Source of the DNA: a virus
Lineage: Duplodnaviria > Caudoviricetes
Strand: one strand, 5' to 3'
Length of the DNA: 64,000 nt
Virus record (IMG/VR): IMGVR_UViG_3300037297_000386
Both the position numbers and the translations under genes were made by a program. The notes under the pieces were generated by a model. The model made no database searches, was not told where the DNA came from, and was given only the letters and a program-made list of their open reading frames with translations. Below, one piece after another: positions 8,320-62,474 of this stretch. How positions within the stretch are numbered: the stretch's first letter is position 1; every line of letters starts with the position of its first letter.

Positions 8320-8325
8320 TATTTA

Positions 8326-35559: not shown

Positions 35560-35664
35560 TTTAATTTCTCCATTATAAAAATTTTTTTAATATTAATAAC
35601 ATATTCTATATATATTTTGTCATTTGGAAAAATAATAGCATATGTGCATCCAATTTTATTCATA

Positions 35665-35937: not shown

Positions 35938-35962
35938 TATTTTTCTCCATTAAATATTTTTT

Positions 35963-39784: not shown

Positions 39785-39815
39785 TTAATATTATAAATTA
39801 TATCTTACATTTACC

Positions 39816-40049: not shown

Positions 40050-40299
40050 TTCTTTTGCCTTTAATCTTTTTGCGACGCACTTTTCTTTTTTTAACAGTTT
40101 CTTCTTTCCAAGTTTGTTTATTATTCTCCCATTTTTTATCTATACGCAATTTACACTCTTTACATTCAGGCATATCACGATTAGAGGGATCTAATGGGCA
40201 ATCTTTATATTCAAGACCACGCCACCACATTATTCCATAACCCAATGAACAATTAAAAAATTTCTTAATAGACTTATTATGGTGATTCTTTTTAGACAT
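40039..40299 (-). CDS. Hypothetical basic Cys-containing protein
   Basis: 86-aa ORF abutting M16 gene. Confidence 0.5.
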   Translation of the reverse strand: MSKKNHHNKSIKKFFNCSLGYGIMWWRGLEYKDCPLDPSNRDMPECKECKLRIDKKWENNKQTWKEETVKKRKVRRKKIKGKRNEH

Positions 40300-41493
40300 T
40301 TACATTCCTGTTCCTACTACTGTATATTTATTACTAGTAAATATTTTCTGTGCAACTTGGTATACATCTTCTACAGTTACTGCATCTATTTCTGATAAAA
40401 ATTTAGATCCGATTGTATAATCAAAAAATTCTTTATATATTGACTGCATAGTTGCCGAATTTGAAGAATCTAATGATTTATAATAAGAACTACGTATTAT
40501 ATTTTTTGCTCTCTTTAGTTCATCATTAGTTGGGCAAGAGGATTTCATTTTTTCTATTTCTTCATCAATAGTATCTGTAACTTTATCTCTATTTTTAGGT
40601 TCAGTAGAAGTATAAATTTGATATACGCTACCGTCCATGTGATGGTCATTATATGATCCTATGCCACATACTAAACCAAGATCTTCACGAACTCTAGTAA
40701 ACAATCTAGACGTATCGCTGGACCCGAAAATAGTCGAAAATACTTTTATTTTAGCACGATCTTTAAGTGAGGATATCCTTAATGATTCTCCAGCAAAACC
40801 AATAGATATTGAATCTTGAATTTGTCCATCTTTATGTATTATATCGTATGATGGTTGCTTGTATGTAATATTATTTGTTTGTGCGGGATATAATAATATA
40901 TCATCCGGAATATTAAAATATTTTTCTACAAGATCCATGCGATCTGACGGAGATCCTAATGTTATTAACATATGCTCATTGGTATAAAATTCTTTATTAA
41001 ATTTTGTTATATGATCACGTGTTATAGAATTAACACTTTTTTCTGTGCCGACAATTGGAGATACCAAAGAGTTATCTTTAAAAATATTATCAACCATCTT
41101 ATAGTAAACCAACCAATCTAAATCATCTTCATACATTTTAATTTCTTGACAAACAACATCTTGTTCTTTTATTAACTCATCCTCTGGAAAAATTGGGTTT
41201 AGTATAATATCAGAAAGACACTTAAAAGCAGTTTCAATATTCTCTTCAGGAATACTCATATGATATAATACAAGATCAGCACTTGTCCATGCATTCCATG
41301 AACCACCATAGTCTGCTGTTTGTTTTAACAGATCCTTCGCTGTATATTTTTTAGTACCCTTGAATCTCACATGTTCCATATAATGTGCTATACCTTTTGG
41401 ATATGTACTATTATATTCAACTCTAGATCCGGCACCAAAAGCTATCATTAAAGTTGATAATTTACTCGGATGCTTTACAAATTTATATTTCAT
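40300..41493 (-). CDS. M16 (pitrilysin) zinc peptidase
   Basis: Inverzincin HYMEH..FKGT, NAWT, EQDVVCQEIKMYED, SRLF..VREDLGL. Confidence 0.92.
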   Translation of the reverse strand: MKYKFVKHPSKLSTLMIAFGAGSRVEYNSTYPKGIAHYMEHVRFKGTKKYTAKDLLKQTADYGGSWNAWTSADLVLYHMSIPEENIETAFKCLSDIILNPIFPEDELIKEQDVVCQEIKMYEDDLDWLVYYKMVDNIFKDNSLVSPIVGTEKSVNSITRDHITKFNKEFYTNEHMLITLGSPSDRMDLVEKYFNIPDDILLYPAQTNNITYKQPSYDIIHKDGQIQDSISIGFAGESLRISSLKDRAKIKVFSTIFGSSDTSRLFTRVREDLGLVCGIGSYNDHHMDGSVYQIYTSTEPKNRDKVTDTIDEEIEKMKSSCPTNDELKRAKNIIRSSYYKSLDSSNSATMQSIYKEFFDYTIGSKFLSEIDAVTVEDVYQVAQKIFTSNKYTVVGTGM

Positions 41494-41540
41494 TCTTACT
41501 CCATAAATTTAATCTGCATATATAGTTCCCTAAAATACGG

Positions 41541-41879
41541 TCATTTGTGACCAATAAGTTCTTGGGTAGAGGAGACTATAGGCTTCCCCCTTGAAACATT
41601 CCAATAGAAACCTTTTCTATTTTTATGCTTCAATCGTGTTGCCTTCATAATCGAAGGCAAAGGCGTAGCAATATTACAGGCAGCGTTATAATCCGAATCG
41701 CATTCATACTTGCATGCTTCGCATTGAAAGTGCTTGCCTTTTCTATTACTACTACGAACCCAGCCACAGTTACTACACCTTTGTGAAGTGTAAGTAGGAC
41801 TTGTGTATTCTACGGAACATCCTTGGGATTTACATAAATCTTCTAACTTACGGTAGATTTCGGTGTAGGTAGAGTGGCA
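41541..41879 (-). pseudogene. tnpB: TnpB (IS200/IS605/IS607 family) C-terminal remnant
   Basis: Hand translation: TYTEIYRKLEDLC...PTYTSQRCSNCGWVRSSNRKGKHFQCEACKYECDSDYNAACNI...NRKGFYW; no in-frame start. Confidence 0.88.
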
Positions 41880-42020
41880 TTATCCATTTGTTTAAAATAA
41901 TCCATAAAAAACTCCAAAGCTATCAAATATACTAATAAATATTATAAGAAAAGCCGTATTTAAAATATAATATATTAATAAAAAAAATTAATATTTATTA
42001 GATATATTCAATAACCAAAT

Positions 42021-43972
<1,952 letters not shown>

Positions 43973-44166
43973 TAAAAGCGCATTATTAATAATAACTATA
44001 ATGCGCTTTGATTATATTTTTCATACTTTATCGATTTCTTTTTTTATATCTAGGCGATCTTACTTTTCTTTTCTTTCTGCCCCTTTTTCTTCTTCCAGTA
44101 TGTTTGGCTTTTTTTCCGACTTTCATGATAACCACCTCCTAAATATGGATTTGGTCTTAAAAGTCT

Positions 44167-45148: not shown

Positions 45149-45307
45149 TTATAATTTAATATTAGTTTTCAGAGCAAACAATAAATGAAATAATTTAGTA
45201 TCAATTGCTAATCTAATATCTCTTTTGCCAAATTCATTGCTTCGCGAGAGAACTGAAAACAAATGAATATGAAAAAATTTGTTGTTGATTTCAAAATGTG
45301 GTTTCAT
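45149..45307 (-). CDS. 52-aa protein MKPHFEINNKFF..., copy 1
   Basis: Near-identical copy at 50372-50518 with mostly synonymous changes. Confidence 0.75.
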   Translation of the reverse strand: MKPHFEINNKFFHIHLFSVLSRSNEFGKRDIRLAIDTKLFHLLFALKTNIKL

Positions 45308-45473
45308 GTTTGTCTTTCTCTTTTGTGACCCAATATCCATTTCGGGCAACCCATTTACAATTTCGGCCACTATTCATTACGGCTATTTCATTGTCTTCTA
45401 TGGTAATTCGGAAACCAAAGATTAATATTGTTTCATAGATCTCATGGACTAATTTTGAAGTTAGTGGAAGCAT
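45291..45473 (-). CDS. Hypothetical protein
   Basis: 60-aa ORF. Confidence 0.45.
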   Translation of the reverse strand: MLPLTSKLVHEIYETILIFGFRITIEDNEIAVMNSGRNCKWVARNGYWVTKEKDKHETTF

Positions 45474-48164: not shown

Positions 48165-48611
48165 TTATCTTTTTCTTTTGGGATCAATACTGGCCTTAAT
48201 CCACTCCTCTTTAGTTAATTTCTGTCCATTCAAGTACCAATACTTAGCACCATTAGGATATTCAATAGCAGGACCATCTTCACGATGAAGCTTTCCATCC
48301 AAGTACCAATACTTAGTACCATCGGAATATTCAACAGCGGGACCGTCTTCGCGGTGACGTCTTCCATTAAGGTACCAATACTTAGTACCATCGGAATATT
48401 CAATAGCAGGACCGTTTTTACGATGGTATTGGCCATTCAAATACCAATACTTAGTACCATCTGTATATTTAATGATATAGGTTCCAATTTCAACATCAAG
48501 TGGTTCTATTGTAATAGGATTTCCATATTCATCTTGCCAGTGGATCTCATTTCTTGTTTTAGTGGTAAGACCTGCTAACAGGGCAGTATAAGCATTGTGT
48601 AAAATAGTCAT
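48165..48611 (-). CDS. Leader plus HREDGPA beta-repeat protein
   Basis: Leader LHNAYTALLAGLTTKTRNEIHW; three 23-aa HRxDGPAIEYxxGxKYWYLNG repeats. Confidence 0.85.
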   Translation of the reverse strand: MTILHNAYTALLAGLTTKTRNEIHWQDEYGNPITIEPLDVEIGTYIIKYTDGTKYWYLNGQYHRKNGPAIEYSDGTKYWYLNGRRHREDGPAVEYSDGTKYWYLDGKLHREDGPAIEYPNGAKYWYLNGQKLTKEEWIKASIDPKRKR

Positions 48612-48686
48612 TTTATCCTTATATTATTTATCTTTAAAAATTTATTAGCGATAAAAATATTAATAATTTACAAAATTTAAAAATAA

Positions 48687-49124
48687 TTATGTTTTACTAG
48701 TGCGTGTCTTAATCCACTCTTCTTTAGTTAATTTCTGTCCATTTAAATACCAATACTCAGAACCATTAGGATATTTAATAGCAGGACCATCTTTGCGATG
48801 AAGCTTTCCATTCAAGTACCAATACTTAGCACCATCATAATATTCAACAGCAGGGCCATTTTCACGGTGAAGGTCCCCGTTCAAATACCAATGTTTAGTA
48901 CCATTGGAATATTCAACAGCAGGGCCATTTTCACGGTGAAGGTCCCCGTTCAAATACCAATGTTTAGTACCATTGAAATATTTGAAGATATAAGTCCCAA
49001 GTTTAATATCAAGTGGTTCTACTGTAATAGGATTTCCATATTCATCTTGCCAATGAATCTCATTTCCTGTTTTGGTAGTAAGTCCTGCTAACAGAGCAGT
49101 ATAAGCATCATGCAATAAACTCAT
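48687..49124 (-). CDS. Leader plus HREDGPA beta-repeat protein
   Basis: Start MSLLHDAY; two repeat units identical over 66 bp (48841-48906, 48910-48975). Confidence 0.85.
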   Translation of the reverse strand: MSLLHDAYTALLAGLTTKTGNEIHWQDEYGNPITVEPLDIKLGTYIFKYFNGTKHWYLNGDLHRENGPAVEYSNGTKHWYLNGDLHRENGPAVEYYDGAKYWYLNGKLHRKDGPAIKYPNGSEYWYLNGQKLTKEEWIKTRTSKT

Positions 49125-49474
49125 TCTATTCGTTTTCCATGTTCCCATTCTTCTTCCGAATATTTCCGTCCATTTTTATACCAACAAGTAGTTTTACCAT
49201 GTTGTTGCCCATCTTGCCATTCTTTTTCCCAATGTTTTTGTCCGTTCCTATACCATCTGATATATTTACCATGAAGTTGGCCATTTTGATATTCTGATTC
49301 CCAATATTTTTGCCCATTCCTATGATAATAACGAATAATATATCTCTCTTGTTTAATATCAATTAATTTTATCGTAATGGGAATACCATATTTATCTTGC
49401 CAATAAATCTCACTTCCTGTCTTACATGTTAATCCTGCTAGAAGAGCAGTATAAGCATCGTGTAATAGTGCCAT
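49121..49474 (-). CDS. Leader plus MORN-variant (YwqK-like) repeat protein
   Basis: HGKYIRWYRNGQKHWEKEWQDG. Confidence 0.85.
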   Translation of the reverse strand: MALLHDAYTALLAGLTCKTGSEIYWQDKYGIPITIKLIDIKQERYIIRYYHRNGQKYWESEYQNGQLHGKYIRWYRNGQKHWEKEWQDGQQHGKTTCWYKNGRKYSEEEWEHGKRIE

Positions 49475-49908
49475 TACTTCTTCCCTATTAAATTATTAAA
49501 CTCTTCTTCGGTCAAGTGTTTGCCATTTAGGAACCATGCTTTGGTACCATCTGCCCACACAACAGCAGGACCATCTTCACGATGTAGTTTGCCATTTAGG
49601 AACCAGTATTTGTCGCCACCTGCATATTCAATAGCATGGCCATCTTCACGATGTGGTTCACCATTTATACACCATGCTTTAGTACCATCTACCCGTATAG
49701 CAGCAGGACCGTCTTCGCGGTGAAGCTTATCATTCAAGTACCAAAACTTATCACCACCAACATACCTAACAATATAGGTACTAATTTTAATATCAAGTGG
49801 TTCGACAGTGATAAGTTTTCCACTTTTATCTTCCCAATTAATCTCATTTCCTGTTTTGGTAGTAAGTCCTGCTAATAGGGCAGCGTAAGCATCATGTAAT
49901 AGTGTCAT
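49474..49908 (-). CDS. Leader plus HREDGPA beta-repeat protein
   Basis: Leader and three repeats. Confidence 0.85.
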   Translation of the reverse strand: MTLLHDAYAALLAGLTTKTGNEINWEDKSGKLITVEPLDIKISTYIVRYVGGDKFWYLNDKLHREDGPAAIRVDGTKAWCINGEPHREDGHAIEYAGGDKYWFLNGKLHREDGPAVVWADGTKAWFLNGKHLTEEEFNNLIGKK

Positions 49909-50076
49909 GGTAATTTACCTATGTATTTTAAACCCATTTTAAATGACAAAAGAACTTTTAATTAATATTTATTTTGTACTATAAAATATAATAATTTTAA
50001 ATAAAATCTTAATACCATATTTTTATTATTGTTTTTCGTAATTCATCCGTTTTTAGCAATGAGTTTGACATTCTGT

Positions 50077-50346
50077 TTACCAAGCCACCTCTTGTCCATT
50101 TGGGCTATACCAACGAAGTACGCAACCTCTAACTCCAGGAGCAGGAACGCAGTGAACTACCTTATCTTTATCTACGATGCGATGAGTGGTTCCTCTCTCG
50201 CGAAAAAATAATCGCTGTGGATTATTAATACGATATGTATGCCGTTGTCCAGCATCTTCCCATTCATATTCTCGCCATTGTTCGTCTGAAACATCGTAAG
50301 GTCCTAATAACTCTCCACTTCTGTCTTCATGTGATTGTGTAGTCAT
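50077..50346 (-). CDS. Hypothetical protein
   Basis: RBS AAGGAG; visibly GC-richer than flanks. Confidence 0.65.
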   Translation of the reverse strand: MTTQSHEDRSGELLGPYDVSDEQWREYEWEDAGQRHTYRINNPQRLFFRERGTTHRIVDKDKVVHCVPAPGVRGCVLRWYSPNGQEVAW

Positions 50347-50371
50347 AACAATCTCCTTTCAAAATTTAATA

Positions 50372-50518
50372 CTAGTTTTTTAAAGTAAATAATAAATGAA
50401 ACAATTTTGTATCAATTGCTAATCTAATATCTCTTTTGCCAAACTCATTGCTTCGTGCGAGAACTGAAAACAAATGAATATGAAAAAATTTATTATTTAT
50501 TTCGAAATGTGGTTTCAT
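50372..50518 (-). CDS. 48-aa protein MKPHFEINNKFF..., copy 2
   Basis: Paralogue of 45149-45307; not in ORF track. Confidence 0.75.
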   Translation of the reverse strand: MKPHFEINNKFFHIHLFSVLARSNEFGKRDIRLAIDTKLFHLLFTLKN

Positions 50519-50586
50519 ATTAATATTAATTTCCTATTTTTTATATTTCTTAATAGCAATTAATGTTTTTATATCAGTTGGTTATT

Positions 50587-50991
50587 TTAATATTCATATT
50601 CGTTCTCTTTTTTACCATTTTTAGACCACCAAATATATTTACCATATAGTCTTCCATTTTGATATTCGTATTCATATTCTTTGTTACCGTTCTCATACCA
50701 ACCAATGTATTTACCATGGGGTTTTCCACTTTGATATTCGTATTCGAAACTTTTCTCGCCGTTTTTATATCGACCAACGCCTTTACCATGACGTTTATCA
50801 TTTTGATATTCTATTTTATGTTCAACTTGTCTGTTTGGATAATAATATCTGACAATGTATCTACACTTTTTTATATCAATCGGTTCTACTGTAATTAGAT
50901 TTCCGTTTTCGTCATTCCAATGTATTTCGTTTCCAGTTTTATAAGTTAGGCCAGATAGCAAGGCTGTATAAGCGTCATGTAGCAAGTTCAT
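50587..50991 (-). CDS. Leader plus MORN-variant repeat protein
   Basis: Ends at TAA where paralogues have CAA (YQN). Confidence 0.85.
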   Translation of the reverse strand: MNLLHDAYTALLSGLTYKTGNEIHWNDENGNLITVEPIDIKKCRYIVRYYYPNRQVEHKIEYQNDKRHGKGVGRYKNGEKSFEYEYQSGKPHGKYIGWYENGNKEYEYEYQNGRLYGKYIWWSKNGKKENEYEY

Positions 50992-51483
50992 AATAATTTT
51001 CCATCTTGATATTCACCTTCATATTCTTTATTGCCGTTCTTATGCCAATTAATACTTTTGCCATGGTGTTTTCCATATTGATATTCACCTTCAAACATTT
51101 TTGGTGCCATTTTTATACCAGCTAATATATTTACCATGTAGTTTTCCGTTTTGGTATTCTCTTTCGAATTTTTTATTACCATTTCCGTACCATCTAATGC
51201 TTTTACCATGGCGTTTTCCGTTTTGATATTCATTTTCGAACTCTTTATTACCATTCGCATACCAAGCAATACTTTTGCCATGGTATTTTTCGTTTTGATA
51301 TTCCATTTCATGTTCAACTTGTCTATTTGAATAATAATATTTGACAATATATCTACACTTTTCTATATCAACTGGTTCTACTGTAATAGGATTTCCATAT
51401 TCATCCTTCCAATGTATTTCGTTTCCAGTTTTGTAAGTTAGACCAGACAATAAAGCGGTATAAGCGTCATGTAGCAAACTCAT
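50988..51483 (-). pseudogene. Leader plus MORN-variant gene with +1 frameshift
   Basis: Extra base in T5 run 51098-51102 splits it into track ORFs 51091-51483 and 50988-51347. Confidence 0.75.
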
Positions 51484-51830
51484 AATAATTTTCCATTTTG
51501 ATATTTGTGTTCATATGCTTTATTACCGTTTTCATACCAATAAATATTTTTACCATGTAGTTTTCCGTTTTGGTATTTTGCTTCGAACCATTTATTGCCG
51601 CTTTCATACCAATTAATGCTTTTACCATGACGTTTTCCGTTTTGGTATTCTGTTTCCCAATGTTTTTGCCCATTTTTAAAATACCTACGAATAATGTATT
51701 TATTTTGATTAATATCAATTGGTTCTATTGTAATGGGATTTCCGTTTTTGTCATTCCAATGTATTTCGTTTCCAGTTTTGTAAGTTAGACCAGATAGTAA
51801 GGCGGTATAAACGTCATGTAGCAAACTCAT
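51480..51830 (-). CDS. Leader plus MORN-variant repeat protein, intact
   Basis: Ends YQNGKLL with ATGA overlap. Confidence 0.85.
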   Translation of the reverse strand: MSLLHDVYTALLSGLTYKTGNEIHWNDKNGNPITIEPIDINQNKYIIRRYFKNGQKHWETEYQNGKRHGKSINWYESGNKWFEAKYQNGKLHGKNIYWYENGNKAYEHKYQNGKLL

Positions 51831-52536
51831 AATAATTTTCCATCTTGATATTTGTATTCATGTGCTTTATCGCCGTTCTCATACCAATCAATGATTTTGC
51901 CATGGTACTCCGTTTTGGTATTCACTTTTCGAATCTTTTCTTGCCGCTTTCATACCAATCAATGTTCTTGCCATGGGGATTTCCATCTTGATATTTGCGC
52001 TCATATTTTTTTTTGCCATTCTCATACCAACCGATGTTTTTACCATGTGGCATTCCGTTTTGATATTCGCCTTCGAACTCTTTATTACCATTCCAATACC
52101 AACCAATATATTTACCATGTAGACTTCCGTTTTGATATTCGCATTCATATTCTTTGTTACCGTTTTTATACCAACCAATGAACTTACCATGTAGTCTTCC
52201 GTTTTGATATTTATTTTCACATTTTTTCTTGCCATCTTTATACCAACTAATGGTTTTGCCATGACGTTTTCCGTTTTGGTATTTTCTTTCAAATCTTTTC
52301 TTGCCGCTTTCATACCAATCAATGTTCTTGCCATGGTATTTTTCGTTTTGATATTCTGTTTCATGTTTAATTTGGCTGTTTGAATAATAATATCTAACGA
52401 TATATCTATATTTTACTGTATCAATCGGTTCTACTGTAATGGAGTTTCCGCTTTCATCCTTCCAATGTATTTCATTTCCAGTTTTGTAAGTCAGACCAGA
52501 TAGTAAGGCGGTATAAGCGTCATGTAACAGATTCAT
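51827..52536 (-). pseudogene. Longest leader plus MORN-variant gene, 3' frameshifts
   Basis: Intact to 51922; extra base at T4 51926-51929 and a nearby 2-nt deletion precede a normal ...YQDGKLL end. Confidence 0.75.
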
Positions 52537-52991
52537 AATAATTTTCCACCTTGATATTCGTGTTCATATCCTTTATTGACACTCTCGTACCAACTAATGG
52601 TTTTACCATTTAGTCTCCCATTTTGGTATTCATTTTCGAACCATTTAGTCTCCCATTTTGGTATTCATTTTCGAACCATTTATTGCCGTTTTTGTACCAA
52701 CCAATGTATTTACCATGTAATTTTCCGTTTTGGTATTTTGCTTCGAACCATTTATTGCCGTTCTCGTACCACCTAATGACTTTTGCCATGGTATTTTTCA
52801 TCTTGGCATTCTATTCTATATTCAACTTGTCTATTTGGATAATAAGATTTGACAATATATTTGCATTTTTCTATATCGACTAATTCTATTGTAATAGGAT
52901 TTCCGATTTTATCCTTCCAGTGTATTTCATTTCCAGTTTTATAAGTTAGGCCGGATAATAAAGCGGTATAAGCGTCATGTAACAAATTCAT
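52533..52991 (-). pseudogene. Leader plus MORN-variant gene with frameshift and 35-bp tandem duplication
   Basis: Extra base at T4 52781-52784; exact 35-bp duplication 52605-52639/52640-52674. Confidence 0.8.
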
Positions 52992-53005
52992 AATAATTTT
53001 CCATT

Positions 53006-53482
53006 TTAATATTTTTCTTCAAACCTTTTATTGCCGTTTTTGTACCAACCAATGTATTTGCCATGGAGCTGTCCGTTCTGATATTCTGCTTCGAACTCTT
53101 TATTGCCATTCTCGTACCAACTAATACTTTTACCGTGGCGTTTTCCATTTTTGTATTCACCTTCGAATATTTTATTGCCATTCTCATACCAACCGGTATT
53201 TTTACCATGTGGTATTCCATTCTGATATTCGCCTTCGAATTCTTTATTGCCATTCCAGTACCAACCAATGTATTTGCCATGTAGTTTTCCGTTTTGATAT
53301 TCTATTTCATGTTCAACTTGTCTATTTGGATAATAAGATTTAACGATATATCTACACTTTTCTATATCAACTGGTTCTACTGTAATGGGATTTCCATTTT
53401 CGTCATTCCAATGTATTTCGTTTCCAGTTTTATAAGTTAGGCCAGATAGCAAGGCTGTATAAGCATCGTGTAACAAATTCAT
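53006..53482 (-). CDS. Leader plus MORN-variant repeat protein
   Basis: Start MNLLHD at 53482; TAT-TAA-AAT stop replaces YQN. Confidence 0.85.
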   Translation of the reverse strand: MNLLHDAYTALLSGLTYKTGNEIHWNDENGNPITVEPVDIEKCRYIVKSYYPNRQVEHEIEYQNGKLHGKYIGWYWNGNKEFEGEYQNGIPHGKNTGWYENGNKIFEGEYKNGKRHGKSISWYENGNKEFEAEYQNGQLHGKYIGWYKNGNKRFEEKY

Positions 53483-53964
53483 AATAATTTTCCATCTCGA
53501 TATTTGCATTCATATCTTTTATTACCGTTTTCATACCAACCAATGTATTTACCATGGCGTTTCCCGTCTTGGTATTCACTTTCGCGGTATTTATTACCAT
53601 TTTCGTACCAGTTAATGTTTTTACCATGTGGCATTCCGTTTTGATATTCTTTTTTGAAATATTTCTGTCCACTCTCATACCAACCAATATATTTGCCATG
53701 TAGTCTTCCATTTTGATATTCTTCTTCAAATCTTTTATTGCCGTTTTCGTACCAACCAATACATTTACCATGGCATTTCTCGTCTTGATATTCACTTTCC
53801 CAACATTTTGCCCCATTTTTAAAATATTTACGAATAATGTATTTATTATTAATTGGTTCTATTGTAATTGGATTTCCATATTCGTCCTTCCAATATATTT
53901 CATTTCTGATTTTATAAGTTAGACCAGATAATAAAGCGGTATAGGCGTCATGTAATAAATTCAT
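53479..53964 (-). CDS. Leader plus MORN-variant repeat protein, intact
   Basis: First gene of the 50.6-54.0 kb tandem block. Confidence 0.85.
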   Translation of the reverse strand: MNLLHDAYTALLSGLTYKIRNEIYWKDEYGNPITIEPINNKYIIRKYFKNGAKCWESEYQDEKCHGKCIGWYENGNKRFEEEYQNGRLHGKYIGWYESGQKYFKKEYQNGMPHGKNINWYENGNKYRESEYQDGKRHGKYIGWYENGNKRYECKYRDGKLL

Positions 53965-54145
53965 TTTATTTTCAATTTTTCTATTTTTTTAATTTTTATT
54001 TTTTAATAATTTATACACTTTATAGGATGACACATTATAATTTTTTTTGGTTAATATTTTTCCACAAAGTGACATTTTTTGTATTTCTTTCTACTCTGAC
54101 ATTCAACACCGATCGTTTTATCCTTTTGGTTCTCATAGAAATTTA

Positions 54146-54159
54146 TCGGGGAAAGTAGG
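54146..54159 (-). repeat. Right copy of 14-bp inverted pair (TCGGGGAAAGTAGG on + strand)
   Basis: Reverse complement of 47017-47030; intergenic. Confidence 0.6.
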
Positions 54160-54182
54160 ACAAATCTTTTTTATTAAATTTA

Positions 54183-54638
54183 TTAATTATTTTTATTTAT
54201 TTCATATATACAATATGCAGAAGTTTCTTTTATTATCTTATATGGTAAATAAACTAAATACTGATGCACACCATATTTTGTAGTATAATCTTTTTTAATA
54301 TCCCGCCTGACTGTTATATATATTTTGCCAGATTTATTTATCAAACCTTTTAATTTATTTATTACTGCTCGTCGTTTATTAATATTGACAACATTTAAAA
54401 CATAAGAACATAATACAATATCATATTTTTTATCTAATAAATTTTTAGTAGGATTCCAATATGGATCATAGCCATTAGCATTATAATTATTTAATTGTAG
54501 CCAGGTGTAATCTGTTCCTCTTCCACAACCAAAATCTAAAATTTTATCGTCTTTATTTATTTTGTTATCATTGATTAATATGCGAAGCGGTAAGGATGGC
54601 CGTTTTCTTACAATTGCGGTTTTGTATGAATTATTCAT
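54183..54638 (-). CDS. Class I SAM-dependent methyltransferase
   Basis: ILDFGCGRGTD, GYDPY, YDIVLCSYVLNVV, VRRD. Confidence 0.85.
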   Translation of the reverse strand: MNNSYKTAIVRKRPSLPLRILINDNKINKDDKILDFGCGRGTDYTWLQLNNYNANGYDPYWNPTKNLLDKKYDIVLCSYVLNVVNINKRRAVINKLKGLINKSGKIYITVRRDIKKDYTTKYGVHQYLVYLPYKIIKETSAYCIYEINKNN

Positions 54639-54804
54639 GGTCGGATTTAATCTCTTTAATATTTAATATTTTAAATGCTTTCTTTCGTAGCATATTACAG
54701 ATTTTTTGCCAATGTTTTTCACAAAGTCCGCGCCCAAGATACACTATATCAGAATCCCTTCCGCATTTTTTATATTGACATTTATTTTCTATATCAGTTA
54801 ACAT
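54631..54804 (-). CDS. 57-aa Cys/His protein
   Basis: Hand-translated MLTDIENKCQYKKCGRDSDIVYLGRGLCEKHWQKIC... Confidence 0.55.
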   Translation of the reverse strand: MLTDIENKCQYKKCGRDSDIVYLGRGLCEKHWQKICNMLRKKAFKILNIKEIKSDHE

Positions 54805-55194
54805 TATTATATTTCCTATTGACTTGGCATCAAATAATAATTAGTCCAATAATGTGGTATATATGTATTATCATTAAAAATGACTCTAATTAAGTAACCT
54901 TGTTTACCACAATTTGTTATTTTTTCTATGCTAATTCTTTCATTTAATATATCATTATACAGATAAAATACAAAAATATTCATATTTTTGTTTTTACAAA
55001 AACTCTTCATTATCATAAAAAGTACCAATACAAATTATTCTTCCATCATACACTTTAATAAGATATTTGGTTGTATAAAATGAATCGTAATTACGATGTT
55101 TAATAGTAATTATATTATTCTTATATTTTACATTTCTGTTACAATTTAATATATTTTGATATAAATGTTTAAGAGTTCCGTTCATTTTGATATT

Positions 55195-55437
55195 TTAATT
55201 ATTTTCAAATGGTGCATCTTCTTCATATTCATAATCTTCATATTGATTAACCCTGGCAAGATATTCTATTACAGTTTCCATTTTATCTGTGAGTGCCATA
55301 TTAACTAAAACATTTGCAACATCGGCTGGTATATTCTCATCTACCAACCTGGTATTTCCATTCTCTTTAATTCGATATAAACAAAATCTGCCACTTTTAA
55401 ATGATAACATAAAATCATCATATAAATCTAAATCCAT
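55195..55437 (-). CDS. Hypothetical acidic protein
   Basis: RBS AGGAG; unrelated to array families. Confidence 0.6.
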   Translation of the reverse strand: MDLDLYDDFMLSFKSGRFCLYRIKENGNTRLVDENIPADVANVLVNMALTDKMETVIEYLARVNQYEDYEYEEDAPFENN

Positions 55438-55917
55438 AATTGATACTCCTTTATTAAAAAAATTAAATTATTAAAATCTTATGAATTTAACCGTCCCAAT
55501 TGATTTTATACATTCTTCAATTATATAACGATTTTCTACCACATGTTGTGGCCACAGGACATAACTTTTAATAATAATTACATTCTCTTTTTGTTTAATC
55601 TGCCATTTTGGATTAAAGAAACATCCATATATAAAAATTATATTCTTATTTATCAATTTATTTACTCTTTCGTATGTTGATAGGATTACCATAAGAAATT
55701 GGTCTTATATCTTTACCCATTATATATCGATCTTCTGCTATATAACCGTATATATAATATGGACTTTTAATAGTAATAATACCATTCTTTTGTTTAACTA
55801 TCCCATCTTTATATAATAAAGAACTATATATATGTCTTATACTTGGATTCATTTTAAACATACTATATAATTTCCACTATTCGCAAAGGAATAATTGTAA
55901 TTAATTTATTATCTATA

Positions 55918-56103
55918 TCAATAAAATATTTCACGATATTTATATCCATCTTTATAATATCTTACAATATATCTTTTCTTTTTAATATCTATTGGTTCTA
56001 ATGTAATAGGATTTCCAATTTTATCATGCCAATGAATTTCATTACCTGTTTTATAAGTGATACCAGACAGTAAGGCCACATAAGCATCATATAATAAATT
56101 CAT
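55918..56103 (-). CDS. Leader-only member of the LLHDAY family
   Basis: MNLLYDAYVALLSGITYKTGNEIHW...; no repeats. Confidence 0.75.
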   Translation of the reverse strand: MNLLYDAYVALLSGITYKTGNEIHWHDKIGNPITLEPIDIKKKRYIVRYYKDGYKYREIFY

Positions 56104-57045
56104 CTTAAATCCAAAAAACTTCTTTAGAATAATATCTTTCTAAAAAATTATTTTAGTTTTTGAATGTCATCTCTCATAAAGATTATTTTACCAACATCTT
56201 TGTCAATTAAATAATGATCTATATATTTATAATCACCATTGTAACGACGGTAATAAGTTTTGATGACAATTATTGTATCTTTTTGACTTACCGTGATTCT
56301 TGTGGTATAGACAGGCATTGAGATATATAAATCTACAATTTCAAGATCCATTAATATATTCCTATATTTTATCAATTTTATTGGTTATATAAATTATTTT
56401 TCCTAATTTTTTATTAATTGAATAATAATTTGTAAAAAAGTATTTATGATTATTAGCAAATGTAGTTTTTATTATAATAGAATTATTTTTTTGATTAACA
56501 TCACTTTTAGAATATAATAATATATTATATAAATTTACTATATTACTATTCATTTTTCTTTTTCCAATACTATATTTTCATTTTTTAAACAATTTGGACA
56601 ACACCAATTTACGATAATTATATCGCCTTCTTAATTTATATATATTACCCTATTACTTTTATCAATTATAAAATATGTTATATATTCCGAAATTAATTTT
56701 ATTATTAAATACTATTACCATATTTTTTATAGTAACAGTATTGTTTGTTTAAACAATACTACTATTAAGATATAAATATTCTTTATATAAATATAGAATT
56801 TCTTTACTAATTTCTATTATACATTTTTCATACCCGAAGATGCCATATAAATTTTATTTTTTATTCTATCAATTATATAATTACAATAAAATTTATATTG
56901 AAAACAATACCATTTTATGGTTATTATATTATTGCATTGATATATATTCATTGTATCTCTTTGGATACTTAATATAGTTTGATATAATCTATAAATATTT
57001 GTTGTCGTATCCATTCTAAAAATCCATTATTCTAATATGAGATAT

Positions 57046-57303
57046 TTATTTTCTTGGAAAATATTTATATCTTGCTGTAATCATCCATAATATAAATTGC
57101 AAAATGTAACTGGATAATAAAGCCGAATCCCATCCAATTTCTGATATTACATAAATTGTCATTAGGACAAATCCAACCAATAATGTCCAAATTAATATAT
57201 GTGATATACCCTGTGAATGCCCATCTCTTATCGACTTGACTACTTGTCCTACTGTTGCTAATATAAATAATATAGAAGCTATTATTCCAAAATATTTAAT
57301 CAT
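57046..57303 (-). CDS. PQ-loop/SemiSWEET-like three-TM protein
   Basis: GIIASILF...GQVVKSIRDGHSQGIS, three TM segments. Confidence 0.7.
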   Translation of the reverse strand: MIKYFGIIASILFILATVGQVVKSIRDGHSQGISHILIWTLLVGFVLMTIYVISEIGWDSALLSSYILQFILWMITARYKYFPRK

Positions 57304-58492
57304 TATTTAATATTGAAGCAGTTTTAACTGTTAAACCTCATTATTCCTTGGCCATTTCACTATTGTTATAAGATATATAACCGTAAAGTTCATTAATTAA
57401 ATAATAATCTGTGAATTTAAAAATATTATTGTTGTAAAAATATCTTACAATAATTAAATTATTATCTTGTCTTAAATCTCTATTAAAATATAATTTTGCC
57501 ATATATAGATATATAATTGTATTATCAATTTTACTATATAACATTTTTAATTACCATGATATTCTGCTCTCGGTCTTTATAAAAATAATATTACCTTTTA
57601 TTCCGTTGATAAAATAATAATATATAAACTTATGGTGATTAAAAGGGCGACTCTCAATACTAATTATATTATTTCTTTGGAGAGCATTTCGTTCAAAATG
57701 CAAAAGATTCCGATACAAATGCCATATATTATTATCTATTAAAGTTCGGATTATCATAATTTACATCTCTATCAATATAAAATATTTGGCCCATTTTTGT
57801 AACCGAATAATAATTAATAAGTTTGTACTTATAGTCATAATTATAACTTGATGTTATAATCATATTATCTTTTTGATTTATATCGCTTTTAAAATATAAA
57901 ATATCTTTATATAAACTATACATAGTATAAGTCATTATTTTAATCACCACAATTTTTTTCTTACACTTCCCTTGTATATTATTTTTCCTGTTTCCTGAAC
58001 AATAGAATAATAGATTCTAAATTCATAATTAAAACCGTTAGTTTTTATAGTAATCAAATTGTTTGTTTGATTTATTTTTCGTTTAAAACACAATATATAT
58101 TTATATAAGGTAACAATATTATTGTTCATGATATTTTTAATACTATATTTGAGAATTCCTATATATGATCTTATAATGTCATAAGAAGGATTAATTGTAT
58201 TTGTTCTCCACTAATAATTTTAAAAAGAGATAAAGATTTGATTTGAATATATTGGAGCCCACAGGCATAGCATATAATGTATTATATTATGACTAAACCA
58301 ATATGAATATTCAATAATTTTTCTATCATTCTTTAATATTTCTATATATAATTTAAATAAATTAGGCTTCTTCATATTTTTATCATTCGTGTAAACAAAT
58401 ATGTATTATCGTATTATATTCTTTTCTAATATTTATACCCAAATATAGCTAAATCTATTAATATTTTATAAAATTATTTTAAGGAAACCCTA

Positions 58493-58654
58493 ATGATCAA
58501 GTCCACTAAGTTATCTACAAAATTTACCAACAAAATCAAACTGGATAATTTAAACTTGTTCATCGACGAATATCGTCGGGTAGTTTCCCAATTCGTAGAT
58601 ATCCTTTGGCCTCAAGATAAAATCCCAAAACTATTACCTAAAGCCACAATCTAA
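58493..58654 (+). pseudogene. tnpB: TnpB N-terminal remnant (53 aa)
   Basis: RBS AAGGA then MIKSTKLSTKFTNKIKLDNLNLFIDEYRRVVSQFVDILW...IPKLLPK, a pattern recalled from TnpB N-termini; lies antisense to the array. Confidence 0.65.
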
Positions 58655-59294
58655 TGTCTCCATAATTTTATCAAATCGCTCAAATATGGCATTTAAGTCT
58701 ATATTATTATGCATTTTTGATTTCCTTTCATTGCTGACGCTCCAACAAATAGATATGCATTATATGATGGTGGTGGTAAATAGATTAGATATGAATCATC
58801 GTAAAGTGATGGATTATATATTATGTCAACTTTCATATTATATTTAAGTATACCTATGTATAATTTTAAAATATTTTGTGGTATATCAGAAATCAAATCT
58901 TGTTCCATTGTATTTACCATAAATAAATATATGTATGCGGATGCAATAAGCAAATTAAATATAGACCATTAAATCCAAACGGATTATATATTCCATTAAC
59001 TTTCATATTATGCACAAGAACTCCGATATATAATTTTAATATATTTTGTTTTAAACTATTTTGTAATATATTAGAAATCATATTTTTCAACTTATTTGCC
59101 TTATAAATAAACATATATATCATATTTTGGATGCGGTAAAATAATTATATATGGGCTACCAACCAAAAATGGATTTTTATATGCCTTCGGAATTTTTATA
59201 TTATATGTAAGCACATTGATATATAGTTTTGTAATATCGTATGAAATATTAATAACCTTTCTTTTTTATTCTTTTATAAAATTGAATTAAAATA

Positions 59295-59738
59295 TTATTT
59301 ATTTATAATTTTCCCGTCTTTATATTTTCCTTCTGAATATTTAATGCCATTTCTATCCCAATTAATAAACTTACCATTAAGGTTGTTATCTTGATATTCT
59401 AATTCACATTGTTTATTGCCATTTTCATACCAGACAATGGATTTGCCATTAAGTTTCCCTTTTTTATGTTCCTGTTCCCATTTTTTATTACCACTTGTAT
59501 ACCAATCAGCAGATTTACCATGAAGTCTTTCTTTCTGATATTTATATTTAAATTTCTTATTACCATTTGAATAATAATATCTGACGATATATTTGCACTT
59601 TTTTATATTAATCGGTTCTACTGTAATAGGATTTCCGTTTTCGTCCTTCCAATGTATTTTATTTCCAGTTTTATAAGTTAGACCAGACAATAAGGCTGCA
59701 TAAGCGTCATGTAATATAGTCACTATTAATTTCTCCAT
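59295..59738 (-). CDS. Leader plus MORN-variant repeat protein
   Basis: ILHDAYAALLSGLTYKTGNKIHW; four repeats. Confidence 0.85.
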   Translation of the reverse strand: MEKLIVTILHDAYAALLSGLTYKTGNKIHWKDENGNPITVEPINIKKCKYIVRYYYSNGNKKFKYKYQKERLHGKSADWYTSGNKKWEQEHKKGKLNGKSIVWYENGNKQCELEYQDNNLNGKFINWDRNGIKYSEGKYKDGKIINK

Positions 59739-62474
59739 AAATATTTTAGCAAATAAATAAACTTTGAGATGCTGACTACCAAGATTTTCAAGATAAAAAA
59801 CATAATATTTTTCATTCGGAAAGAATAAATAGGATGTCTTAATGATTATTCCGTTATTTTTTAATATTTCTATGTAGAATAAATATAATAATCCAAGTAA
59901 TGCTTCTACTGTATAATTTTTCGATTTAAAATTTTATACACACATTATTCTTGTATTTGAATATACTGCCACCCATAACATTCAAGAAAAATAGCATAAA
60001 ATACAGCATTATCCGTTTTTTATATACTTATAATATAAATATCTTCTACTAATTTTTATATTAAATTTTAATATAAAACAATATAAATTACATATATCAT
60101 ATGGAATAATTTTTTTCATTATCTGTTTAAATTTTTTTCTGTTATAAAAAAATATTTATTTCATTTGAATATGGTCCACAACTTAAATATACAATATAGA
60201 CATCTACATGAAGTTCTAAATCACGGATTTTCCAATTATCCCTTAATACTTTAAGATATAATGAATATATATTATGTGAAATTTTATTCATAAATTTGTA
60301 TCTTATCATTTTAATTGTTTTAATTTAATATATAAATGGCCAAAGTCCTTAAAATAAATACCATAATATCTTGTATCAAAAGTACAAAAACACTTTGTTC
60401 CAACAATTTCCCAATTTTTTCCCAACATTCCAATATACAATATTCTTACAGTATGTAAATTATTCATAAAATTAAAAAACTCCAAATTAATTTTTTATTA
60501 TTAAGAATATATATTTAAACATAATTTACCTATAATTTTAGATATATAAATCTTGGGTCCCCAGATGGGCCGAATTCTAAATATATAACCCGAAAGTTAT
60601 TTTTATCAAAACGTATATTTTTTTTATTAGTAGAAACAATCTTTCTTTTTTCATTAAGAATATAATGATATAATTTGCTTATATTAAATTGGACACCATT
60701 CACATTTCAGCCACTTTCTTTTAGTGTAATATTTTCCAAATCTGTATCCATAAAAACTACTTATTCATCACTTGACCACAGACAAACATATGGTGTATGA
60801 TCTGATTTTATTGGATATGGATAATTTGACACATAAATGTTATAATAAATTCGATCATTAAATTTCGACTGTCTAATTTCGACAGTTTTTCTACTATATT
60901 TAAGTATCGTGATATACAACTTGTAAATTCTCCATGAAATATTATGAAACACAAATTTCTCCATTATATTTGTTGATCATATAAATATATATATACAATA
61001 CTTTTATTCGTTTGATGTTTTAAATGAATTATGTATGGATTATTGGACAAAAAATTTGTTCTATATGTAGCACTAACTATTCTATTTTCTTTAAGTATTA
61101 CGATATATAATCTAATTAAATTACTTGCAAAATTTCTATTCATAATTTCTTTACCGCCCGTCGTCTCGCAAATAAATAACATAATTATATCGTAAAGATG
61201 GTTTATGAGAAAGATAAATGGCATAGATCTTAATTCCAATAGAGAGATAAATTCTAGATATATCTATAACTCTATTTTTACCATTCAATAGAAGACCATA
61301 TAACTCAATTATCTTATTAGACATATTCTTATTCAAAACCTAATATAAATAAAGTTTAAGACATTCAGAAACAGTGCCATCCATAGGAAGGCAAAAAACA
61401 TAAATATATATACCATTAGGAGAACGGTAACGATATGTATCAACAATTTCCTTATTTCTCTTTAAAAAACTAAAATATAATAATTTTAAATCTAAATAAA
61501 TCATATTACCCACAAAAAATATTTCCCGTTAATATAAATTTAAATAAAGCGTAAAATGTTTAAGACATTTTACATGAATGCAATATCTTTTGTCATTTTC
61601 ATGCCAAGATGTCCCAATAATTTTTCCATTACTCTTTAATATTTTAATATAGAATATTTTTAAGTCCCAAGAAATATTATACATTTTATTTAATGATTAT
61701 CTATTTTTATATCTATTGAACAAATAATATGGGCCAGAATATGAATACGACGTTAAGTAAACAAGATAAAATTCAATATTGTAATCAGAATAAATTGGGC
61801 ATGTTCTTACTATTTTACAATTTTCTTTTAATATTTGAATATATAATTTAGACAAATCATATGGACTGGTTTTTTTCATTTGACATTCACTTTTGAAGGC
61901 ACTCAATTTTCATTCTCCCATAAATAAATTTTTTCGTAAAGACTATATCCCATTCCTGATTCCAAATAACCAATACTAAATTTTGTATTATATGAATAAT
62001 GAAATTCGTGAATATCAGTAACCTTTCCATTATTTTTTAATAATGCAATATATAATTTAATTAGGTTATGTGAAGATTCATTCATATATTTCTTGCAAAT
62101 AAATAAATATATTCAGGATAATATCCTGGCCTTTCAATAGTAATGATACGATAAAGTAATGAAGCGGATGTAAATTGTGGCACTAATGTGATTTTTTTAT
62201 TACTTGTTAATATTCTTATATATAATCTGTATAAATCACTAGTCATGATTCATCACCATAGCGGTAACCATCTGGACAATTTTACTTTGATTTCTTTGTT
62301 ATCCACACGTATATAAATTCGCTGAAAGCATGCGCATCTTAGGTTCTTTTATAAAAAAGTATAATATTTTAAATTTTTACATGGTGAATAAATAGGATAT
62401 GCATCAACAATTTTCTTATTTCTTTTCAATATTTTAATATAAAGTTCAAACAAATTATTAACCATATTTATTTC

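What the first reader, a model, noticed from the sequence alone, without database searches (positions are those of the whole stretch)
54816..58129. Array A: a dozen hypervariable ~60-aa mini-proteins on a shared scaffold
Pattern: helix (IxxLYxxIL), QxNNIIxIK strand, variable loop, aromatic strand (YxI), then GKIIY. DNA identity between copies is no longer evident, yet length and pattern are kept and genes are packed head to tail. This fits an old, selected expansion of a small alpha/beta domain with variable loops.
Basis: partly seen in the sequence, partly recalled or inferred. Interest (0 to 1): 0.7.

Follow-up and report, generated by a model that had tools for sequence, protein, structure and literature searches.

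The report
Tandem mini-protein family in huge phage
An uncultured 312-kb wetland phage carries a real row of ten (not twelve) diverged genes for one 63-residue helix-plus-four-strand protein with no known relatives; a sister phage keeps 31 copies. The set is most likely a kit of small host-binding proteins, but no function has been tested.

Summary
Ten intact minus-strand genes between 54994 and 58129 form one paralogous family. Leave-one-out profiles find each left-out copy at E 3e-8 to 1e-17 (29-59 bits; shuffled copies reach at most 12.5). The region also holds one dead copy (about 56640-56815, five in-frame stops). A dispersed divergent copy lies at 45291-45473. ORF 54816-55016 is not a detectable member.

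AlphaFold2 gives a confident model (pLDDT 86.6): an N-terminal helix on a four-strand antiparallel meander. No significant match appeared in Pfam, PHROGs, PDB, BFVD or the ESM Atlas.

Among 1.84 billion representative proteins the family occurs in three phages only: this one (10 copies), a sister phage (31 copies, collinear orthologs) and a third phage (one copy).

Orthologs are 45-70% identical, against 82-95% for flanking genes. Omega is 0.20-0.53, and still about 0.5 at the paralog-variable sites. The array is therefore old, kept by selection and shaped by gene birth and death.

Array A is probably a distant relative of the neighbouring Array B through a shared N-terminal helix. A link to the MORN-cap family is not shown.

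The function is inferred only: most likely a repertoire of small cytoplasmic binders aimed at host proteins. The phenomenon is known in jumbo phages (phage G, 121Q), and this scan has noted similar arrays in other phages. This family is new.

The parts
57944..58129 (-). Array A member, 61 aa (first in the direction of transcription)
   Evidence: Leave-one-out HMM E 1.5e-15, 55.4 bits against a shuffle maximum of 10.6. Best sister-phage match is L007 2172-2363, 46%.
57732..57935 (-). Array A member, 67 aa
   Evidence: Leave-one-out E 2.8e-10. Lies 8 nt after the upstream gene.
57551..57757 (-). Array A member, 68 aa; overlaps the upstream gene by 26 nt
   Evidence: Leave-one-out E 6.8e-14. Best sister-phage match by BLASTP is L007 2769-2975, 55%.
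57341..57544 (-). Array A member, 67 aa
   Evidence: Leave-one-out E 5.1e-12. Ortholog L007 4052-4261, 48%.
57046..57303 (-). Interloper: 85-aa three-helix membrane protein, PQ-loop / SemiSWEET-like; not a family member
   Evidence: Pfam PQ-loop E 3.7e-4, 20.6 bits, just under the 22-bit cut-off. No counterpart in the sister array.
56817..57014 (-). Array A member, 65 aa
   Evidence: Leave-one-out E 1.3e-8. Ortholog L007 4435-4632, 50%; the pair has tree support 99/99.
56640..56815 (-). Dead Array A copy: one frame reads EILYLYKEYLYLNSSIV*TNNTVTIKN...IFYN**K**GNIYKL with five stops (TAA, TGA, TAA, TAA, TAG) and no start codon. The first stop sits at the near-invariant Gln codon.
   Evidence: HMM hit on 56752-56853 at E 0.002; codon listing; DNA-level matches to intact copies.
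56362..56553 (-). Array A member, 63 aa; the sequence that was modelled
   Evidence: Leave-one-out E 1e-17. AlphaFold2 pLDDT 86.6. Ortholog L007 6364-6576, 71%.
56148..56351 (-). Array A member, 67 aa
   Evidence: Leave-one-out E 8.4e-11. Ortholog L007 6566-6805, 52%.
55918..56103 (-). 61-aa protein made only of the N-terminal cap of the neighbouring MORN-repeat family, inside the array; not an Array A member by sequence
   Evidence: MORN-cap HMM 120.5 bits, A HMM -0.2 bits. The ortholog L007 7471-7857 has 128 aa with MORN repeats (57% identity). Model pLDDT 87.9, a helix plus five strands.
55658..55861 (-). Array A member, 67 aa
   Evidence: Leave-one-out E 9.2e-10. Ortholog L007 8051-8254, 59%; tree support 100/98.
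55471..55692 (-). Array A member, 73 aa; overlaps the upstream gene by 35 nt
   Evidence: Leave-one-out E 3e-8. Orthologs L007 8432-8617 (54%) and 8239-8439 (50%).
55195..55437 (-). Interloper: conserved, strongly acidic 80-aa protein; not a family member
   Evidence: 72.5% identical to L007 8830-9072 at the same place in the sister array. No Pfam hit. A HMM -0.2 bits.
54994..55185 (-). Array A member, 63 aa (last intact copy)
   Evidence: Leave-one-out E 1.3e-11. Ortholog L007 9081-9272, 68%; tree support 100/100.
54816..55016 (-). 66-aa ORF with a similar N-terminal helix motif (NIFVFYLYNDIL) but no detectable Array A membership
   Evidence: A HMM 2.0 bits, 9% of shuffles score as high. The counterpart in the sister phage is split between two frames.
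45291..45473 (-). Dispersed, divergent Array A-like gene (60 aa), 10 kb from the array; lacks the conserved Gln
   Evidence: 41-member HMM 16.7 bits, reached by 0 of 1000 shuffles. Aligns to profile positions 7-52.

Best explanation
Array A is a phage-specific multigene family.

Shown:
- Ten tandem genes on one strand, tightly packed or overlapping, each encode a soluble protein of about 63 residues with one predicted fold.
- In that fold an N-terminal amphipathic helix (I5, L8, Y9, L13) lies across a four-strand antiparallel meander, whose core is I26, I28, Y43/44, I46, I52 and Y54. The two hairpin turns are conserved (QxNN and K..G).
- The family predates the split from a sister phage that keeps 31 copies.
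- Individual copies are retained as collinear orthologs under purifying selection, yet change three to five times faster than neighbouring genes.
- Copies are lost by decay and deletion.

Inferred:
- The proteins have no catalytic-looking motif, no conserved surface patch, no conserved charge, and no signal peptide or membrane segment.
- Almost every exposed position differs between paralogs but is constrained within each ortholog line.
- So each copy most likely acts in the infected cell as a stoichiometric binder (inhibitor, decoy or adaptor) of a different host protein or protein variant. The array would then be a host-takeover or anti-defence repertoire whose breadth tracks the hosts and defences the phage meets.
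- The array is probably co-transcribed with Array B upstream and with the methyltransferase and MORN genes downstream, as one long leftward accessory operon.
For: - Family real.
- Fold: (pLDDT 86.6, pTM 0.71).
- Narrow distribution: a profile search of 1.84e9 representatives gave 33 hits, all in the window, in one sister-phage contig or in one singleton.
- Sister array of 31 called members, with the same interlopers in the same order (MORN gene, acidic 80-aa gene, then a 57-aa gene and the methyltransferase).
- Faster change than neighbours: A orthologs are 45-70% identical with dN 0.18-0.43, against 80-95% and dN 0.03-0.09 for the methyltransferase, the 57-aa gene, GroEL and M16. dS is similar for both, mostly 0.5-0.9.
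- Purifying selection: omega 0.20-0.53 per pair. Pooled omega is 0.15 at conserved columns and 0.47-0.52 at paralog-variable columns.
- Ortholog identity exceeds paralog identity at almost every variable column.
- Old copies: tree.
- Pseudogene.
- No terminator-like site in 53900-58500, and gene spacings of -35 to +10 nt for most junctions.
- Net charge ranges from -3 to +9 and no cysteine is conserved.
- No known family or fold.
- The setting is an accessory region with two other expanded small-protein families: MORN_2-type proteins and Array B.
Against: - No expression, localisation or binding data exist, and no RNA data were available.
- The host is unknown.
- Nothing ties the family to any defence system. 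Its neighbours (methyltransferase, MORN proteins, an acidic protein) are only suggestive.
- Omega below 1 even at variable sites argues against an ongoing rapid arms race at the ortholog level.
- The fold rests on one AlphaFold2 run with a shallow alignment of ten paralogs. The ESM Atlas single-sequence model of the same protein is poor (pLDDT 0.44).
- NG86 estimates on 60-codon, AT-rich genes with dS near 1 are rough.
Confidence: 0.5

Rival explanations
1. Immunity-type antidotes. The mini-proteins, like the neighbouring MORN_2 (YwqK-like) proteins, would neutralise toxic effectors, such as abortive-infection toxins, polymorphic toxins of competing bacteria, or toxins of rival phages. One paralog would serve one toxin class. 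This is a special case of the binder model with a defined target class.
For: - The array is interleaved with, and adjacent to, MORN_2-repeat genes (Pfam PF07661; sister-phage gene 7471-7857 inside the array).
- Copy numbers run in opposite directions in the two phages: 10 A with 13 MORN in the window, 31 A with 1 MORN in the sister region seen. This fits interchangeable roles.
- Arrays of orphan immunity genes are a known pattern in bacteria (my own knowledge).
Against: - No sequence or fold match to any immunity family.
- No toxin gene lies nearby.
- The A to MORN-cap relationship is not supported.
- The copy-number contrast rests on two genomes, and the sister contig ends at the array.
Confidence: 0.15
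2. Regulators or nucleic-acid-binding proteins of the phage's own programme, for example a graded set of transcription or translation modulators or structural DNA binders. Iyer et al. proposed such roles for the roughly 35-copy zinc-ribbon expansion of Bacillus phage G.
For: - The mean net charge is positive: +3.0 per protein against +0.4 per 63 residues for other window proteins.
- The precedent is a tandem small-protein expansion in phage G, read as possible specific transcription factors or DNA binders (PMC7824862).
Against: - Charge is not conserved (-3 to +9), and several members are acidic.
- No helix-turn-helix, zinc ribbon or other nucleic-acid-binding motif, and no Pfam hit.
- No conserved basic patch: the conserved residues are core or turn residues.
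Confidence: 0.12
3. Virion-associated or assembly proteins (internal, ejected or decoration proteins) present in many isoforms.
For: - The same genome has many head-associated accessory proteins and ejection-type polyproteins, according to earlier notes.
- The array lies on the same strand as the tail-fibre, GroEL and M16 peptidase genes 11-18 kb downstream.
Against: - None of the recurring tags reported for this phage's packaged proteins is visible in the A sequences (sequences; tags as described).
- The copy number differs threefold between sister phages whose structural genes are conserved, which is unusual for structural parts.
- Fast divergence.
Confidence: 0.08
4. Largely dispensable duplicated filler. 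Tandem duplication would serve as a way of filling a headful-packaged jumbo genome, with copies drifting and no specific function per copy.
For: - Hua et al. interpret the arrays of more than 30 genes in phages G and 121Q as genome expansion by tandem duplication (PMC5646251).
- A pseudogene and truncated copies exist.
- Two thirds of the copies are missing in one of the two phages.
Against: - Omega is 0.20-0.53 in all nine pairs and about 0.5 even at variable sites.
- Individual orthologs are retained in order across dS of about 0.8.
- The one dead copy has decayed quickly, which shows what relaxed selection looks like here.
- There are no recent near-identical duplicates.
Confidence: 0.1

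Closest known systems
Tandem arrays of more than 30 small genes in jumbo phages G and 121Q (Hua et al. 2017, PMC5646251), and the roughly 35-copy zinc-ribbon expansion of Bacillus phage G (Iyer et al. 2021, PMC7824862)
   Same: Dozens of same-strand, head-to-tail genes for small proteins in a jumbo-phage accessory region. They arose by tandem duplication and their function is unknown. This scan has also noted comparable arrays in other jumbo phages.
   Different: - Different protein family and fold: alpha plus four-strand beta, with no conserved cysteines, rather than a zinc ribbon or helical bundle.
- No sequence match to anything in those phages: the profile search of 1.84e9 representatives found only three phages.
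- The copies here are highly diverged (30% mean identity), not 'very similar'.
Array B of the same phage (58220-64000 and beyond; earlier finding e1-5369613)
   Same: - Adjacent, on the same strand, and of the same size class.
- The same N-terminal helix motif, (N)I..LY..(I)L..N.KI, followed by beta strands.
- Cross-family HMM scores exceed shuffles: 6.2 against 0.5 bits mean, and 35% of B members score above the 99th percentile of shuffles.
- hhalign local P 2.3e-4 over 22 columns.
   Different: - Only the helix aligns.
- Array B lacks the QxNN hairpin and the GKIIY strand, and is reported to have three strands, not four.
- hhalign probability is only 44%, so common descent is likely but not shown.
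MORN_2 / YwqK-type repeat proteins with the conserved N-cap (48165-53964, 55918-56103, 59295-59738; Pfam PF07661)
   Same: - Same accessory region; one such gene sits inside the array in both phages.
- Both start with an amphipathic helix of pattern h-x-x-(L/A)-Y-x-x-h-L at residues 3-13, followed by beta hairpins.
   Different: - No profile similarity: hhalign P 0.08 or worse, and HMM cross-scores are within the shuffle range.
- The cap model has five strands, and its PDB neighbours differ from those of Array A.
- Array A has no MORN repeat.
Cystatin / monellin-like alpha+beta roll, the basis of engineered Affimer-type binders (my own knowledge)
   Same: One helix packed across a short antiparallel sheet. 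A designed cystatin-fold protein (4r80) is among the best Foldseek matches (TM 0.59). As in cystatins, a conserved Gln lies in the first hairpin after the helix.
   Different: - The match is not significant (E 0.13; VIA Z 5.0, within noise).
- The motif is QxNN, not QxVxG, and there is no PW loop.
- Four strands and 63 residues only.
- No evidence of protease inhibition.
Multigene families of large eukaryotic DNA viruses (ASFV MGF families, poxvirus terminal families; my own knowledge, also named in e1-5369613)
   Same: Tandem, fast-evolving paralog sets with copy-number differences between related viruses; these are host-range and immune-evasion repertoires.
   Different: Unrelated proteins and hosts. 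For Array A the host-interaction role is only inferred.

Membership tests
Jumbo-phage tandem mini-protein arrays (a phenomenon, not a homologous family) | At least 10 same-strand, head-to-tail genes for paralogous proteins of 50-90 aa in a phage of more than 200 kb | tested here: met
   Ten intact copies plus one dead copy in 3.1 kb, all on the minus strand. The contig length is 311,797 bp. Phage hallmark genes are present.
Jumbo-phage tandem mini-protein arrays (a phenomenon, not a homologous family) | Copy number and content differ between related phages | tested here: met
   10 copies against 31 called copies, with collinear orthologs.
Array B family of this phage | Significant profile-profile similarity over the whole domain | tested here: inconclusive
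   hhalign local P 2.3e-4 and probability 44%, over the helix only; global P 3e-3. Cross-HMM scores lie above shuffles.
MORN_2 / YwqK (PF07661) | At least one MORN_2 repeat detectable by the Pfam model | tested here: not met
   None of the 10 members hits PF07661 at E up to 1.
MORN-cap domain of this phage | Match to the HMM of the conserved 45-60-residue N-cap | tested here: not met
   Cap HMM against A members: mean 0.8 bits, and 5% of members above the 99th percentile of shuffles. hhalign P 0.08-0.98.
Cystatin superfamily | QxVxG first-hairpin motif and a PW second hairpin | tested here: not met
   The consensus has Q-k-N-N and d-K-x-x-G at the two turns. No Pfam cystatin hit.
Cystatin superfamily | Helix across a 4-5-strand antiparallel sheet, with a significant structural match | tested here: inconclusive
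   Foldseek to 4r80_A: E 0.13, TM 0.59. VIA Z 5.0, rmsd 3.5 over 58 residues, within the noise band.
Phage G zinc-ribbon expansion | Four conserved Zn-binding cysteines or histidines | tested here: not met
   Mean 1.2 Cys per protein, none conserved.
YmzC (PF14157) | Pfam model match or a significant fold match | tested here: inconclusive
   No Pfam hit. VIA Z 5.4, rmsd 1.7 over 42 residues to 3kvp_A, covering the beta sheet only. Atlas TM 0.64. All are within the range of chance for a small meander.
PHROGs families | hmmscan hit shared by several members | tested here: not met
   The best result is a single-member hit at E 0.005. No PHROG is hit by more than 2 of 10 members (E 0.63).

The most novel reading that the evidence does not exclude
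Array A, Array B and perhaps the MORN-cap proteins descend from one ancestral module: a Tyr-bearing capping helix plus beta hairpins. Together they would form a single, exchangeable repertoire of more than 50 (this phage) to about 90 (sister phage) small binder genes. The family composition would trade off between lineages (10 A with 13 MORN here; 31 A with 1 MORN in the sister region). That would be a phage-encoded, germline-diversified binder library comparable in logic to the multigene immune-evasion families of large eukaryotic viruses.
Probability: 0.2. Interest if true: 0.75.

Novelty: new member of a known kind. Interest (0 to 1): 0.45.

Why it matters
Huge phages spend a sizeable part of their coding capacity on tandem families of tiny proteins, and none of these has a known function. 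This family has several practical advantages. The predicted fold is confident. Two genomes are close enough for ortholog-by-ortholog comparison. The conserved core is clearly separated from the paralog-specific surface, and each copy shows evidence of being kept by selection. That makes it a good case for asking what such arrays do, for example by synthesising the 10 + 31 genes and screening them for partners, toxicity or defence rescue. The 63-residue scaffold, which tolerates change at almost every exposed position, could also interest people who design binders. If Arrays A and B and the MORN-cap genes prove to be one system, they would make up the largest accessory gene set of this phage clade.

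Tried and rejected
- Megablast of window 35000-44000 against 50,697 phage records found no match. The DnaE protein finds only relatives at about 33% identity.
With a MORN protein it found no relative in IMG/VR.
- Pfam and PHROGs scans of all ten members gave only scattered single-member hits at E of 0.005 or worse.
- The PDB sequence profile search gave 0 hits at E up to 10.
- Foldseek PDB (best E 0.12), VIA-align wide (best Z 5.9), BFVD (best E 0.033), the ESM Atlas by shape and the Atlas by features gave nothing above the noise level.
- The word-indexed search with the 41-member profile found only proteins of the window or of the same sister-phage contigs, so no new source.
- The whole genome of the window is not held, and the sister contig is not in a searchable record.
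- Population polymorphism: the sister-phage contigs from six other samples are 99.98-100% identical, so no within-population dN/dS could be computed.
- Homodimer prediction with complex prediction scored 0.01, 'no answer'. This is not evidence either way.
- RNA evidence: no RNA holder was listed for the stretch.
- The promoter scan is uninformative in this AT-rich DNA: 67 sites against 54 +/- 7 expected.
- Recoding idea: the stops in the dead copy are a mixture of TAA, TGA and TAG, so stop-codon reassignment does not rescue it.
- My impression that the plus-strand ORF 58493-58654 is a TnpB-type remnant got no Pfam support.
- Two general literature searches for phage paralog arrays returned irrelevant papers.
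Full report
**Context.** The window is AT-rich (21-37% GC, lowest over the arrays). Nearly all its long ORFs lie on the minus strand. It encodes DnaE-type Pol III alpha, an intein-bearing SbcC, trigger factor, GroEL, an M16 peptidase and a tail fibre with an S74 chaperone domain. The contig is 311,797 bp long, and earlier notes of this scan call it an uncultured wetland huge phage. No close relative exists among deposited phages.

**The observation.** I listed all minus-strand ORFs and aligned the candidates. The 41-sequence consensus is Mn..Ii.LY..iLyfkrnI.QknNiIiIk.y.....YkFi.YYlIdK..GkIiY.
- The family is not circular reasoning. With each member left out of the HMM, that member is still found at E 3e-8 to 1e-17 among 885 six-frame ORFs of the window, while the best ORF outside the array scores about 1e-3.
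- It is not composition. Real scores are 29-59 bits, and the best of 200 shuffles of each sequence reaches 12.5 bits.
- Mean pairwise identity is 30% for protein and 53% for codon-aligned DNA. Only the closest pairs still align by sensitive blastn, at 67-74%.

The count needs correcting.
- ORF 54816-55016 is not a detectable member.
- The 263-nt gap at 56554-56816 holds a dead copy. Its single reading frame still spells the family pattern but has five stops of mixed type and no start codon, and the first stop replaces the near-invariant Gln codon.
- A dispersed divergent copy lies at 45291-45473.
- Three unrelated genes sit inside the interval: an acidic 80-aa protein, a 61-aa MORN-cap protein and an 85-aa PQ-loop membrane protein.

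**Fold.** AlphaFold2 with the ten-paralog alignment gives pLDDT 86.6 and pTM 0.71, with a helix at 3-14 and strands at 17-22, 25-31, 38-47 and 52-62.
- Conserved positions alternate along the strands and line one face of the helix, as expected for a hydrophobic core.
- The only conserved polar features are Tyr9 (invariant), Gln21 (90%) and the two tight turns, QxNN and K..G. I read these as structural; that is an inference.
- Everything exposed varies: the outer helix face, residues 14-18, the outer sheet face, the beta2-beta3 loop (which also varies in length) and the C-terminal tail.
- No known fold is matched above noise. The nearest shapes are generic helix-on-meander proteins (a designed cystatin fold, YmzC, propeller blades).
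- The model is shallowly supported: the alignment contains paralogs only, and the Atlas single-sequence model of the same protein is poor.

**Distribution.** A profile search of 1.84 billion representative proteins returned 33 hits. Eight are the window's own proteins. Twenty-four lie on one contig of a related phage, assembled identically from many runs of one study. One is a single-copy gene in a third phage of 39% GC, among glycosyltransferase genes. The family has no Pfam, PHROG or PDB relative. A second search with the 41-member profile found no further source.

**Comparison with the sister phage (locus L007).** Its array has 31 called members plus truncated ones. The order of landmarks is the same as in the window: many A copies, a MORN gene, a few A copies, the acidic 80-aa gene, one A copy, the 57-aa Cys-rich gene, the methyltransferase, then GroEL, M16 and the tail fibre.
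- Nine or ten window copies have individual, collinear orthologs at 45-70% identity. The methyltransferase, the 57-aa gene, M16 and GroEL are 80-95% identical.
- dS is similar for both classes (mostly 0.5-0.9), so the A genes change faster at the protein level: dN 0.18-0.43 against 0.03-0.09.
- They remain under purifying selection, with omega 0.20-0.53.
- Pooled by column class, omega is 0.15 at conserved columns and 0.47-0.52 at the columns most variable among paralogs.
- Orthologs are more alike than paralogs at nearly every variable column. Each paralog therefore keeps its own surface.
- In the maximum-likelihood tree, seven window/sister pairs are strongly supported, the window copies never group together, and sister-only copies sit on long branches.
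- So the common ancestor already had a large array, and the window lineage has probably lost copies, in line with its pseudogene. These estimates are rough because the genes are short, AT bias is strong and dS is near saturation for the most distant pairs.

**Relation to the neighbours.** Array B (58220 onward) shares the N-terminal helix motif.
- A-HMM scores on B members, and the reverse, exceed composition-matched shuffles: mean 6.2 against 0.5 bits, with 35% of B members above the 99th percentile.
- hhalign gives a local P of 2.3e-4 over the 22 helix columns, at 44% probability.
- I regard common descent as likely but unproven.
- For the MORN N-cap the helix pattern looks similar by eye, but the profiles do not match. 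The cap model has five strands, and its PDB neighbours are different.
- The 61-aa gene 55918-56103 is a cap-only version of a gene that has 128 aa with MORN repeats in the sister phage.

**Expression signals.** Junctions between genes range from -35 to +10 nt at most positions. No terminator-like site lies in 53900-58500. Start codons are preceded by A-rich sequence with weak GGA/GGT elements. This fits one long leftward operon with translational coupling. No RNA data could be found (see Tried and rejected).

**Mechanism.** What is shown is a soluble 63-residue scaffold, with no catalytic-looking motif, no conserved surface, variable charge (-3 to +9), paralog-specific surfaces under constraint, and birth-and-death dynamics in an accessory region. 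The best-supported reading is a repertoire of small stoichiometric binders, each aimed at a different host (or competitor) protein, that is, a host-takeover or anti-defence kit. I put this at about 0.5. The immunity-type variant, suggested by the MORN_2 neighbours, is a sub-case at about 0.15. Regulator, virion and filler readings are less likely, for the reasons given under the rivals. A homodimer prediction gave no verdict.

**Comparison with what is known.** Tandem arrays of more than 30 small genes are on record for phages G and 121Q (PMC5646251), as is a roughly 35-copy zinc-ribbon expansion in phage G (PMC7824862). This scan has also noted several such arrays in other jumbo phages and Array B in this genome. 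Array A belongs to that phenomenon but is a different, undescribed protein family with an alpha+beta fold. I therefore classify it as a new member of a known kind. Interest is moderate: the function of such arrays is an open question, and this family, with a sister genome at a useful distance, is a tractable case.

Noticed in passing
window 56640-56815 (-): A decayed Array A copy with five in-frame stops of mixed type and no frameshift. The first stop replaces the conserved Gln codon. It serves as an internal control for what relaxed selection looks like in this AT-rich DNA.
   Followed up: yes
window 57046-57303 (-): An 85-aa three-helix membrane protein with a PQ-loop / SemiSWEET-like match (E 3.7e-4, just under the Pfam cut-off) is inserted in the array. 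It has no counterpart in the sister phage's array.
   Followed up: partly
window 55195-55437 (-); L007 8830-9072: A strongly acidic 80-aa protein with a Glu/Asp/Tyr-rich tail is conserved (72.5%) at the same position inside both arrays and has no Pfam hit. It could be a DNA-mimic type anti-restriction protein; this is a guess only.
   Followed up: no
window 55918-56103 (-) vs L007 7471-7857: The MORN gene inside the array is cap-only (61 aa) in the window but has 128 aa with MORN repeats in the sister phage. Conversely, the window has 13 MORN-cap genes and 10 A genes, whereas the sister region has 1 MORN gene and 31 A genes.
   Followed up: partly
window 45291-45473 (-): A dispersed, divergent Array A-like gene lies next to a homolog of sister-phage gene L007 1267-1596. 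In the sister phage that block lies at the far end of the A array beside a truncated A copy (L007 1606-1749), so the block has moved between the two genomes.
   Followed up: partly
window 54816-55016 (-); L007 about 9238-9486: A 66-aa ORF overlaps the last A gene by 23 nt. It carries a similar helix motif and a faint MORN-cap HMM score (6.8 bits, P 0.007 against shuffles). Its sister-phage counterpart is split between two frames.
   Followed up: partly
window 59739-60008 and 62247-62474 (-): Two long 'intergenic' gaps in Array B read as unannotated or decayed Array B copies, for example MVNNLFELYIKILKRNKKIV... in 62247-62474.
   Followed up: no
window 58376-58698: The 323-nt spacer between Arrays A and B contains a stretch that looked to me richer in G+C (not measured) and a plus-strand 53-aa ORF (58493-58654) with no Pfam hit. 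It is the only sizeable non-array sequence between the two families, and its origin is unexplained.
   Followed up: partly
L010 8179-8373 (JGI 3300010413) and L011 (GCA_016839505.1): The only family member outside the two array-bearing phages is a single-copy gene in a 39%-GC phage contig. It lies between a GT2 glycosyltransferase gene and a phosphoglucomutase gene, near genes with Tad6 (PF25188) and ADP-ribosylglycohydrolase domains.
   Followed up: partly
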